Below, piece after piece: positions 1-509 of a stretch of 509 nt of DNA. This DNA is from Escherichia coli (GTDB lineage Bacteria > Pseudomonadota > Gammaproteobacteria > Enterobacterales > Enterobacteriaceae): assembly GCF_003334385.1 (NCBI RefSeq), contig NZ_QOWN01000173.1. One strand, 5' to 3'. The notes below the pieces were generated by a model, which was not told the DNA's origin, made no database searches, and worked only from the letters and a program-made list of their open reading frames with translations. Numbering within the stretch: position 1 is the stretch's first letter; every line of letters starts with the position of its first letter. A program made the position numbers and the translations under genes.

Positions 1-28
1 GGCTCTTCCGCAACCTGGGTGGAGATTT
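1..28. repeat. Putative terminal inverted repeat (IRR) of the ISL3-family element; inner boundary uncertain
   Basis: The sequence GGCTCTTCCGCAACCTGGGTGGAGATTTTC starts at position 1. From memory, ISL3-family IRs typically begin GGCTCTT and are roughly 15-39 bp long. The segment sits directly downstream of the transposase stop codon. The partner IR is outside the window, so the inverted-repeat relationship cannot be verified here. Confidence 0.55.
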
Positions 29-509
29 TCATGCCAGTGGACTCATTACCCTCTGCCTGAGTAGTTCAAATCCTGCTCGACCATACATCTGGCGTTTCAG
101 CATCTTCAGGCGATTTACATGACCTTCGACAACACCATTACTCCAGCGACTACTGATTGCCTCACATATAGCTGCAGCATCAGCTTCCATCCCCGCCGCC
201 ACGCGCCGAAATTCTGCTGAACCGCTTTCGTGGACTCGAGTGAACCAACTGCTTAGCTGTGATTTATTTTGGGTTTTCAGAATACGGTAGAACTCGAGTG
301 CCAGTTGCTGCGCTATTTTCAGCTCAGGTTCTTTTTCACACATCAGACTAATAAATCGGGAAGCATAATTTTCTTCATCCCTGGTTATTCTCCAGGGCAT
401 CAACCAGCGGCTTACCCGGGACACTGAAGGAAGTCTGACGGCAGTAGTAACCGGTGGGTTCCAGCCTTTACGCCATTTGGCAACCGCATCCCTGACGATG
501 GTTTCACTG
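29..509 (-). CDS. ISL3-family DDE transposase, C-terminal portion (5'-partial; the N-terminus lies beyond the right window edge)
   Basis: The supplied 131-aa minus-strand ORF (29..424) ends in WSNGVVEGHVNRLKMLKRQMYGRAGFELLRQRV (plus-strand 80..145 covers WSNG..YG). This matches the conserved C-terminal SNGxxEGxxNxxKxxKRxxxGxxxF signature of the IS204/IS1001/IS1096/IS1165 (DDE_Tnp_ISL3) transposase family as I recall it. My hand translation of the same frame from 425 to 509 gives ...SETIVRDAVAKWRKGWNPPVTTAVRLPS with no stop codon. No Shine-Dalgarno-like purine run precedes the GTG at 422..424 (upstream minus-strand sequence CAGACTTCCTTCA). The GTG is therefore an internal Val codon rather than the true start. 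The stop codon TGA lies at 29..31 (plus-strand TCA). Confidence 0.85.
   Translation of the reverse strand, partial: SETIVRDAVAKWRKGWNPPVTTAVRLPSVSRVSRWLMPWRITRDEENYASRFISLMCEKEPELKIAQQLALEFYRILKTQNKSQLSSWFTRVHESGSAEFRRVAAGMEADAAAICEAISSRWSNGVVEGHVNRLKMLKRQMYGRAGFELLRQRVMSPLA

What the first reader, a model, noticed from the sequence alone, without database searches (positions are those of the whole stretch)
1..28. Window starts exactly at an apparent ISL3 terminus, so the insertion junction is lost
The first bases (GGCTCTTCC...) look like the outermost bases of an ISL3-type inverted repeat, and the transposase stop codon lies only 28 bp inside. If so, the window or contig breaks exactly at the element boundary, as happens when assemblies collapse multicopy IS elements. 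The insertion target and any disrupted or activated neighbouring gene would then lie just left of position 1. This matters for interpreting the locus but is not a novel system.
Basis: partly seen in the sequence, partly recalled or inferred. Interest (0 to 1): 0.3.

Follow-up and report, generated by a model that had tools for sequence, protein, structure and literature searches.

The report
ISEc38 terminus nested in IS100-derived arms
The window is the tail end of the known E. coli insertion sequence ISEc38 and starts exactly at its catalogued end. In complete genomes that end is always wrapped in 21 bases borrowed from a different insertion sequence (IS100), and the ISEc38 transposase carries an IS100-type DNA-binding module that appears to aim it at such ends.

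Summary
Bases 1-23 are the terminal inverted repeat of ISEc38 (ISL3 family). The transposase stop codon is at 29-31. A 21/23 inverted copy lies exactly 1,722 bp away in complete genomes, which is the reference length of ISEc38.

Host DNA does not begin left of base 1. Every intact genomic copy examined has 21 more bp on each side. These are identical to the outermost 21-22 bp of the left or right end of IS100 (IS21 family). Target duplications of 5-6 bp flank this 1,764-bp unit, and two empty sites confirm it. No 8-bp repeat flanks these units.

The core sits in either orientation between the arms, even within one genome (E. coli M8). That can explain a contig break exactly at base 1.

The transposase has an IstA-type tandem helix-turn-helix module inserted in its ISL3 catalytic domain. 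Rare intermediates show the core inserted, with a canonical 8-bp duplication, in the spacer of IS21-family terminal repeats.

Best reading: an ISL3 subgroup homes into IS21-family ends and then rides as a mini-IS21. What moves the composite is unresolved, because the M8 lineage has no detectable IS100.

The parts
1..23 (.). Terminal inverted repeat of the 1,722-bp ISEc38 core at the stop-codon-proximal end: GGCTCTTCCGCAACCTGGGTGGA.
   Evidence: It matches the other end 21/23 in inverted orientation, at 1,722 bp, in L001-L003. The reference length of 1,722 bp comes from PMC8613203. The GGNTCTTCCGCAAC motif is conserved in relatives L010-L031.
29..31 (-). Stop codon (TGA) of the ISEc38 transposase.
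   Evidence: ORF list and translation. RefSeq CDS WP_075262665.1 ends here in L001 and L002.
32..508 (-). The last 159 codons (residues 381-539 of 539) of the ISEc38 transposase. The reading frame runs off the window's right edge.
   Evidence: Translation. NCBIfam transpos_ISL3 matches window residues 27-155 to profile positions 238-368 of 370.
455..508 (-). Tail of the IstA-like second helix-turn-helix (residues 381-398). It includes T383 (500-502) and R386 (491-493), which align with the IstA DNA-contact residues T92 and K95.
   Evidence: Transposase 302-398 aligns with IS5376 IstA 10-107 (PDB 8Q4D and 8B4H), E 1.6e-10. BLASTP against IS100 IstA gives E 2e-11. NCBIfam transpos_IS21 gives E 1.6e-16. 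The contact residues are named in PMC10122671.
125..127 (-). Codon of E508 in the motif NGVVEGH, the presumed catalytic glutamate of the DDE triad. This is an inference.
   Evidence: Position computed. The assignment rests on general knowledge of the conserved C-terminal motif of ISL3 transposases and on the DDE_Tnp_ISL3 match. It was not tested.

Best explanation
The window is the stop-codon-proximal 509 bp of ISEc38, and base 1 is the first base of the catalogued 1,722-bp element. This much is shown.

In genomes this core is nested between two 21-bp arms. The arms are the outermost terminal repeat of the left and right ends of IS100 (IS21 family). The unit that lands at new sites is arm + core + arm, 1,764 bp, with a 5-6-bp target duplication. 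This is also shown.

The transposase is a chimera. It is an ISL3 zinc-ribbon/DDE enzyme with an IstA-type tandem helix-turn-helix module (residues about 300-400) inserted in the catalytic domain. In IstA, this module reads the terminal repeats of IS21-family elements. This is shown at sequence level.

Inferred mechanism:
1. The module docks the ISL3 transposase on IS21-family terminal repeats.
2. The core then integrates, with its canonical 8-bp duplication, into the AT-rich spacer of a repeat (nucleotides 14-21 of the IS100 end).
3. When both ends of one IS21-family element are hit, loss of the interior leaves arm21-core-arm21. The loss could come from recombination between two cores or from intramolecular transposition.
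4. That composite is moved by IS21-type chemistry (TGT...ACA termini, 5-6-bp duplication), most likely by IstA/IstB supplied in trans.

Both arm arrangements coexist with identical cores in a single genome. An assembly graph would therefore fork exactly at base 1, which can explain where the window starts.
For: Arms:
- L001, L002 and L003 share 21 extra bp on each side.
- IS100 (1,954 bp, L093) begins TGTCACGAACGGTGCAATAGTG and ends CACTTTTCATCCGTCGTTGACA. That is 22/22 identity to each arm.
- Arm variants seen in other Enterobacterales are the termini of IS100-like elements in metagenome contigs, with istA or istB lying immediately inside them.

Unit of insertion:
- Empty site in Nissle 1917, GACCGGTAATGGCGAT, against M8: 1,764 bp plus GTAAT.
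- Empty site in RM10042 against M8: 1,764 bp plus CAGAGG.
- 5-6-bp repeats lie exactly 21 bp outside the core in L010, L012, L014, L016, L021, L027, L071, L089 and L094, and in the M8 plasmid pairs ATTAC and CCGGG(A).
- IS100 itself makes 5-bp duplications (GCTGT; CTGTC). IS5376 makes 5 bp (PMC10122671).

The core is a discrete unit found in both orientations:
- The L008 core differs from L001 at only 7 internal sites, yet its arms are swapped.
- M8 holds both arrangements with 100% identical cores.

Chimeric transposase. The same module is present in distant relatives L035-L089.

Targeting intermediates:
- L098: ...AAGTGGATC[ACTTTTCA]core[ACTTTTCA]TCCATCGTTGACA.
- L097: a full-length IS100 whose right end reads ...GGATCACTTTTCA|core.
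- L045 (Rhodococcus opacus): the core, with 8-bp duplication TGGGTTTC, sits inside the repeat array upstream of an istA-like gene.
- Armless relatives give clean 8-bp duplications. The arithmetic 13 + 8 = 21 bp accounts for the arm length.
Against: Helper source:
- The E. coli lineage with the most copies (M8, RSHH22, SK6988) shows no IS100 and no ISEc12 on the chromosome. The IS100 probe was run with both megablast and blastn. The ISEc12 probe was run with megablast only.
- The M8 plasmids have no IS100 beyond the 22-nt arms.
- The only ISEc12 copies annotated on the M8 plasmid are incomplete. One has its istA interrupted by a composite and the other lacks the 5' end of istA.
- No IstA/IstB helper is therefore evident today.

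Other points:
- IS5376 IstA needs two complete repeats per end in vitro (PMC10122671), while the arms hold one partial repeat.
- The idea that the ISL3 repeat mimics the second IS100 repeat in register is not supported (p about 0.1).
- The step from two hits to one composite was not observed directly.
- Several armless close relatives (L013, L017, L022, L023) show no duplication at all.
- Targeting is inferred from comparative anatomy. There are no binding or transposition data.
Confidence: 0.7

Rival explanations
1. Self-mobilised chimeric insertion sequence. The 1,764-bp unit is the real autonomous element. Its own transposase reads the IS21-type arms through its IstA-like module and cleaves at the TGT...ACA termini, so no IS21-family helper is needed.
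For: The M8 lineage has at least 10 composites, and the five cores compared are 100% identical. The characterised sites carry fresh 5-6-bp duplications. Yet no IS100 or ISEc12 is detectable on the chromosome, and no IS100 and only incomplete ISEc12 copies on the plasmids. The transposase carries the full IstA HTH-1/linker/HTH-2 module with R31, T92 and K95 equivalents retained. The arms are single repeats, which IS5376 IstA cannot use in vitro.
Against: Members of the same transposase subgroup make 8-bp duplications at the GG ends. The arm-bounded units make 5-6 bp, the IS21-family value, and one active-site geometry would not be expected to give both. The canonical ISL3 3' end (...GCC or ...ACC) differs from ...ACA. 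If the module binds the arm the way IstA binds a repeat, it would place catalysis near the spacer/core boundary and not at the TGT tip. A helper may have been lost, or may belong to an IS21-family type I did not probe.
Confidence: 0.2
2. The arms are only scars of the target. Composites never move as units. Each site first received a full IS100, with its 5-bp duplication, which ISEc38 then invaded at both ends and hollowed out in place.
For: Intermediates with the core in one IS100 end exist (L097, L098). IS100 alone explains the 5-bp duplications.
Against: This requires three rare events at every one of many sites. That includes at least five sites in M8 with 100% identical cores, in a lineage where no IS100 is left. 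The composites greatly outnumber the intermediates: hundreds to thousands of E. coli records against a handful of junction hits.
Confidence: 0.05
3. The window start is not an assembly break. It reflects clipping of the sequence to database coordinates of ISEc38, or an arbitrary window edge that happens to coincide.
For: Base 1 equals the reference ISEc38 boundary (1,722 bp). The right edge at 509 falls inside the gene with no feature there, and I found no reason for a break at that position.
Against: A coincidence has odds of about 1 in 1,700 for a random cut. Both arm types precede this same end at 99% identity or better in comparable numbers of E. coli records (80 and 121), and both occur together in M8. 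That would fork a de Bruijn graph at this base.
Confidence: 0.25

Closest known systems
ISEc38 (ISL3 family; ISfinder reference as used by MobileElementFinder and RefSeq PGAP)
   Same: The window is 100% identical to loci that RefSeq names 'ISL3-like element ISEc38 family transposase'. The core length of 1,722 bp equals the reference allele length.
   Different: The reference stops at the GGCTCTTCC ends. The unit found inserted in genomes is 42 bp longer and ends in IS100 sequence, with 5-6-bp duplications and not 8-bp ones.
Canonical ISL3-family insertion sequences (IS1165, IS31831 and ISPst9 types)
   Same: Zinc ribbon plus DDE_Tnp_ISL3 transposase. Inverted repeats begin GGCTCTT. Armless relatives of the subgroup and the intermediate L098 make 8-bp target duplications.
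   Different: About 110 extra residues (about 296-406) are inserted in the catalytic domain. They are homologous to IstA HTH-1/HTH-2. Insertion appears to be aimed at IS21-family terminal repeats.
IS100 / IS21 family (IstA transposase plus IstB ATPase)
   Same: The arms are identical to the IS100 termini over 22 nt. The termini are TGT...ACA. The duplication is 5-6 bp.
   Different: There is no istA or istB inside the unit, and only one partial terminal repeat per end. The interior is an unrelated, complete ISL3 element.
Non-autonomous miniature derivatives mobilised in trans (MITE-like mini-IS), and elements that home into other repeats (IS1397/ISKpn1 into REP palindromes; IS30 and IS21 into their own ends)
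   Same: The ends of one element flank foreign content and depend on a transposase encoded elsewhere. Target choice is directed at a repeated, protein-bound DNA motif. Plain mini-IS100 solos of 47 bp and 69 bp also exist.
   Different: Here the passenger is itself an autonomous insertion sequence, and its enzyme carries the host element's own DNA-reading module. I found no such case in the searchable literature. The comparison with IS1397, IS30 and IS21 targeting rests on my own knowledge.

Membership tests
ISL3 family | Transposase with the DDE_Tnp_ISL3 catalytic domain and an N-terminal ISL3 zinc ribbon. | tested here: met
   Pfam PF01610, E 5e-36 in two stretches, and PF14690. NCBIfam NF033550 scores 376 bits against a cutoff of 180. 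The window fragment alone scores 114.6 bits on profile positions 238-368.
ISL3 family | Terminal inverted repeats of about 15-39 bp beginning GGCTCTT. | tested here: met
   Window 1-23 against the far end is 21/23. The motif is conserved in relatives.
ISL3 family | 8-bp target-site duplication at the inverted-repeat ends. | tested here: inconclusive
   Met in L098 (ACTTTTCA), L045, and L046, L047, L054, L062, L070, L081, L088 and L049. Not met at the core edges of the common arm-bounded copies.
ISEc38 (named element) | Near-identity to the reference element over its full 1,722 bp. | tested here: inconclusive
Indirect support: 100% identity to RefSeq loci named ISEc38, and the core length equals the reference allele length.
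IS21 family (for the 1,764-bp unit) | Termini 5'-TG...CA-3' with IstA-binding terminal repeats. | tested here: met
   The arms are identical to IS100 nucleotides 1-22 and 1933-1954. Only one partial repeat is present per end.
IS21 family (for the 1,764-bp unit) | Short target duplication (5 bp for IS100 and IS5376). | tested here: met
   5-6-bp duplications at 13 or more sites, two of them checked against empty sites.
IS21 family (for the 1,764-bp unit) | Encodes istA and istB. | tested here: not met
   The only ORF is the ISL3-type transposase. tblastn with IS100 IstA and IstB finds only the HTH-like module. The unit is therefore not a member. At most it is a non-autonomous derivative.
IS21-family IstA N-terminal DNA-binding module (for transposase residues about 300-400) | Tandem HTH-1/linker/HTH-2 homologous to IstA residues 1-104, with the DNA-contact residues retained. 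| tested here: met
   PDB 8Q4D and 8B4H residues 10-107, E 1.6e-10. NF033546 profile positions 2-104, E 1.6e-16. R323, T383 and R386 align with R31, T92 and K95, while K32 is replaced by V. Actual DNA binding could not be tested here.

The most novel reading that the evidence does not exclude
An ancient subgroup of ISL3 transposases carries the DNA-reading module of IS21-family IstA inside its catalytic domain. It uses this module to home into the terminal repeats of resident IS21-family elements. In IS100-free hosts such as E. coli M8, it may also use the module to move the resulting arm-bounded unit by itself. That would be a two-layer insertion sequence with two nested, functional sets of ends, and a case of one insertion sequence parasitising another by molecular mimicry of its transposase.
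Probability: 0.25. Interest if true: 0.75.

Novelty: new variant of a known kind. Interest (0 to 1): 0.5.

Why it matters
Practical consequences:
- The catalogued ISEc38 boundaries (1,722 bp) are not the boundaries of what actually inserts (1,764 bp).
- Tools that look for an 8-bp repeat, or that place the disrupted gene right next to the GGCTCTTCC end, will be off by 21 bp and will find no duplication.
- Contigs will tend to break at the core edge, because two alternative arms precede it.

Biological consequences:
- The data point to a transposase that acquired another family's end-recognition module and uses it for target choice.
- This would be a concrete, testable case of domain insertion reprogramming where a transposase integrates.
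- It would also be a case of one insertion sequence exploiting another. Arm-bearing copies occur in Enterobacterales, Vibrio, Actinobacteria and Myxococcota.

Tried and rejected
1. Longer ISL3 inverted repeats. I first read the 21-bp arms as an extension of the ISL3 repeat. I rejected this when the arms proved identical to the IS100 termini and were found swapped around unchanged cores.

2. Homologous recombination within the inner repeats as the cause of core inversion. Rejected, because the polymorphic positions 3 and 15 of the repeat travel with the core.

3. The 47-bp and 69-bp arm-only solos as excision footprints of the core. Rejected. Their centres (GGATC, and ...GGAGATATAAGTGGATC) are IS100 sequence joined at microhomologies (AGTG, CAATA). 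They are plain internal deletions of IS100.

4. The ISL3 repeat mimicking the second IS100 repeat in register, which would give IstA two sites per end. Not supported: 16/49 identities, shuffle p about 0.1 on the left end, worse on the right.

5. A resident helper in M8. Composite queries showed no IS100 on the chromosome (megablast and blastn) and no ISEc12 on the chromosome (megablast only), and no IS100 on the plasmids.

6. Literature searches for ISEc38 with IS100, ISL3 with IS21, and target specificity returned only isolate inventories and IS21 structural papers.

7. I found no cause for the window's right edge at 509.

8. Structure prediction and large protein-database searches were not run. 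The sequence-level matches to IstA were already unambiguous.

Full report
**What is in the window.**
The 509 bases are 100% identical to loci annotated 'ISL3-like element ISEc38 family transposase' on many E. coli chromosomes and plasmids. A match was found in 2,991 of 5,426 complete genomes, and 431 records match at 99% identity or better. On the minus strand an ORF open at the window's right edge ends at a TGA at 29-31. It encodes residues 381-539 of the 539-residue transposase WP_075262665.1. NCBIfam places the fragment on positions 238-368 of the 370-position ISL3 profile.

**Checking the observation.**
In three complete copies (L001, L002, L003) the window lies at locus positions 3001-3509. 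Its first 23 bases, GGCTCTTCCGCAACCTGGGTGGA, recur in inverted orientation as GGTTCTTCCGCAACTTGGGTGGA. From first to last base is exactly 1,722 bp. A MobileElementFinder table lists the ISEc38 reference allele as 1,722 bp at 100% coverage (PMC8613203).

**What lies beyond base 1.**
The three copies sit in unrelated contexts but share 21 more bp on each side. On the left this is TGTCACGAACGGTGCAATAGT (arm A). On the right it is ACTTTTCATCCGTCGTTGACA, the reverse complement of arm B, TGTCAACGACGGATGAAAAGT.

In M8 chromosome copy L002 the element interrupts a zinc-ribbon gene. The intact gene in Nissle 1917 reads GACCGGTAATGGCGAT. The M8 site reads GACCGGTAAT[1,764 bp]GTAATGGCGAT. A second empty site gave the same picture: RM10042 has ...CATGACAGAGGTAGTAGG..., and M8 copy L095 has 1,764 bp plus CAGAGG.

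A systematic scan found direct repeats of 5-6 bp exactly 21 bp outside the core in L010, L012, L014, L016, L021 and L027. It found no 8-bp repeat at the core edge. More cases came from M8: CATGG, and the exchanged pairs ATTAC and CCGGG(A). So the unit that inserts is 1,764 bp, and the host junction lies 21 bp left of the window.

**Identity of the arms.**
A 1,954-bp IS100 (IS21 family) in L093 begins TGTCACGAACGGTGCAATAGTGATCCAC and ends GTGGATCACTTTTCATCCGTCGTTGACA. It is flanked by a 5-bp duplication, GCTGT. Arm A is IS100 nucleotides 1-21 and arm B is the last 21. A local blastn extends each identity to 22 nt.

Arm variants seen in Citrobacter, Enterobacter and Tenebrionibacter relatives were found in metagenome contigs as the termini of IS100-like elements. 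The B-type variants have istB immediately inside, and the A-type variants have istA. IS5376, the structural model of the family, also makes 5-bp duplications (PMC10122671).

**The core is a separate unit.**
With the transposase orientation held fixed, some copies have arm A at the stop-codon end and others have arm B. The L008 core differs from L001 at 7 internal sites, with both termini unchanged, yet its arms are swapped. E. coli M8 holds both arrangements with 100% identical cores.

At 99% identity or better, the 81-mer 'A + stop end' occurs in 80 records and 'B + stop end' in 121. In such a genome a short-read graph forks exactly at window base 1. That is the simplest reason for a contig to start there. 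I could not examine the parent assembly.

**The transposase is a chimera.**
Pfam splits DDE_Tnp_ISL3 into two stretches. The best covers residues 160-295 (profile positions 1-135 of 240). The second was not listed; it must cover the rest of the profile after the insert, since the ISL3 match resumes at about residue 407. The ISL3 NCBIfam profile of 370 positions spans 505 residues.

The intervening residues 302-398 match only IS5376 IstA in the whole PDB: 8Q4D and 8B4H, residues 10-107, E 1.6e-10. They also match IS100 IstA residues 9-101 (33% identity, E 2e-11) and NCBIfam transpos_IS21 profile positions 2-104 (E 1.6e-16).

In IstA this region is HTH-1, a minor-groove linker and HTH-2. It reads the two conserved boxes of each terminal repeat (PMC10122671). 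The contact residues R31, T92 and K95 align with R323, T383 and R386. The last two are encoded in the window at 500-502 and 491-493. The same insert is present in relatives of only 31-38% identity from Actinobacteria, Cyanobacteria and Myxococcota. It is therefore ancient, whereas the E. coli arms are identical to present-day IS100.

**Evidence for homing.**
- Armless members of the subgroup show clean 8-bp duplications at the GG ends: L046, L047, L054, L062, L070, L081, L088 and L049.
- In Rhodococcus opacus L045 the core, with duplication TGGGTTTC, sits inside the repeat array upstream of an istA-like gene.
- In E. coli E8 (L098) the core is flanked by ACTTTTCA on both sides, inside the right terminal repeat of a mini-IS100.
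- In E. coli SMBL (L097) a full-length IS100 with istA and istB reads ...GTGGATCACTTTTCA|GGTTCTTCC... at its right end.

ACTTTTCA corresponds to nucleotides 14-21 of the IS100 end. Thirteen terminal bases plus the 8-bp duplication give exactly the 21-bp arm. Arm-bearing copies with 5-bp duplications also occur in Actinobacteria (L071 GACGA, L089 CTTTC).

The step from 'one core in each end' to 'arm-core-arm' is inferred. It could occur by recombination between two direct cores or by intramolecular transposition.

**Who moves the composite.**
TGT...ACA termini and 5-6-bp duplications point to IS21-type chemistry, because the ISL3 enzyme of this subgroup makes 8-bp duplications. There are two obstacles.

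First, the M8, RSHH22 and SK6988 chromosomes showed one place only for composite queries carrying 700-800 nt of IS100 or ISEc12. The IS100 query was run with megablast and with blastn; the ISEc12 query was run with megablast only. The M8 plasmids contain no IS100 beyond the arms, and only incomplete ISEc12 copies are annotated there: one has its istA interrupted by a composite and the other lacks the 5' end of istA.

Second, IS5376 IstA needs two full repeats per end in vitro.

A lost or unprobed helper remains possible. Self-mobilisation through the IstA-like module cannot be excluded. I rate trans-mobilisation about twice as likely as self-mobilisation.

**Verdict.**
ISEc38 itself is known. 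Its systematic nesting in IS21-family ends and the IstA-type insert in its transposase were not described in any paper I could search. I could not consult ISfinder or TnPedia.

Noticed in passing
L091 1480-1560 / L093 (E. coli L16-131 chromosome): A full IS100 is inserted immediately next to the outer tip of a composite's right arm...GTTGACA GCTGT [IS100] GCTGT GAAGTATG. The same arrangement seems to recur in several genomes (three-piece hits beside a zinc-ribbon gene). This would fit IS21-family insertion beside an end bound by IstA.
   Followed up: partly
L090 1501-1547; L092 1501-1569: Miniature IS100 solos occur without any ISL3 core. One is 47 bp (left 21 nt plus right 26 nt, duplication CTGTC) and lies inside an IS3-family orfA. 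It is present in about 520 E. coli records. A 69-bp version lies on plasmid pOkiPb01694_1. Both look like microhomology deletions of IS100.
   Followed up: partly
L173 29864-31627 and L174 5962-7725 (M8 plasmid unnamed1): Two composites have exchanged flanks. ATTAC and CCGGG(A) each occur once beside each copy. This implies an inversion by recombination between them. One original insertion split the istA gene of an ISEc12 (IS21 family).
   Followed up: partly
L015 and L029, about 40 bp outside the core: In Budvicia and Symbiopectobacterium one side carries a longer arm: ...ATACCGATCGAATTCTGACCCACCCTGCCAAAGTAAAACT|GGGTC. It looks as if the core entered the second, inner repeat of an IS21-family end and not the outermost one.
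   Followed up: no
L006, L007 and rows H67-H83: A variant about 95% identical to ISEc38, with internal stops or frameshifts, sits at one conserved chromosomal site between a gamma-glutamyltransferase pseudogene and a zinc-ribbon gene in very many E. coli. It also has IS100-type arms (TGTCACGAACAGTGCAAAAGT) but no visible duplication.
   Followed up: no
L002 2725-2736: The 12-mer TGTCACGAACGG, the start of arm A, occurs again about 255 bp upstream of the composite, followed by unrelated sequence. It may be chance or a remnant of an IS100 end.
   Followed up: no
L009 core position about 1540 and right end: The copy on plasmid pD2-tet(X4) has a 14-bp insertion in the core, and its right arm is replaced by unrelated sequence (ACTTTCAACAGCGGG...).
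   Followed up: no
L013, L017, L022, L023 (Citrobacter braakii, Pantoea stewartii, Rahnella, Vibrio): These close relatives have neither recognisable arms nor any target duplication at the core edges. What flanks them is unexplained.
   Followed up: no
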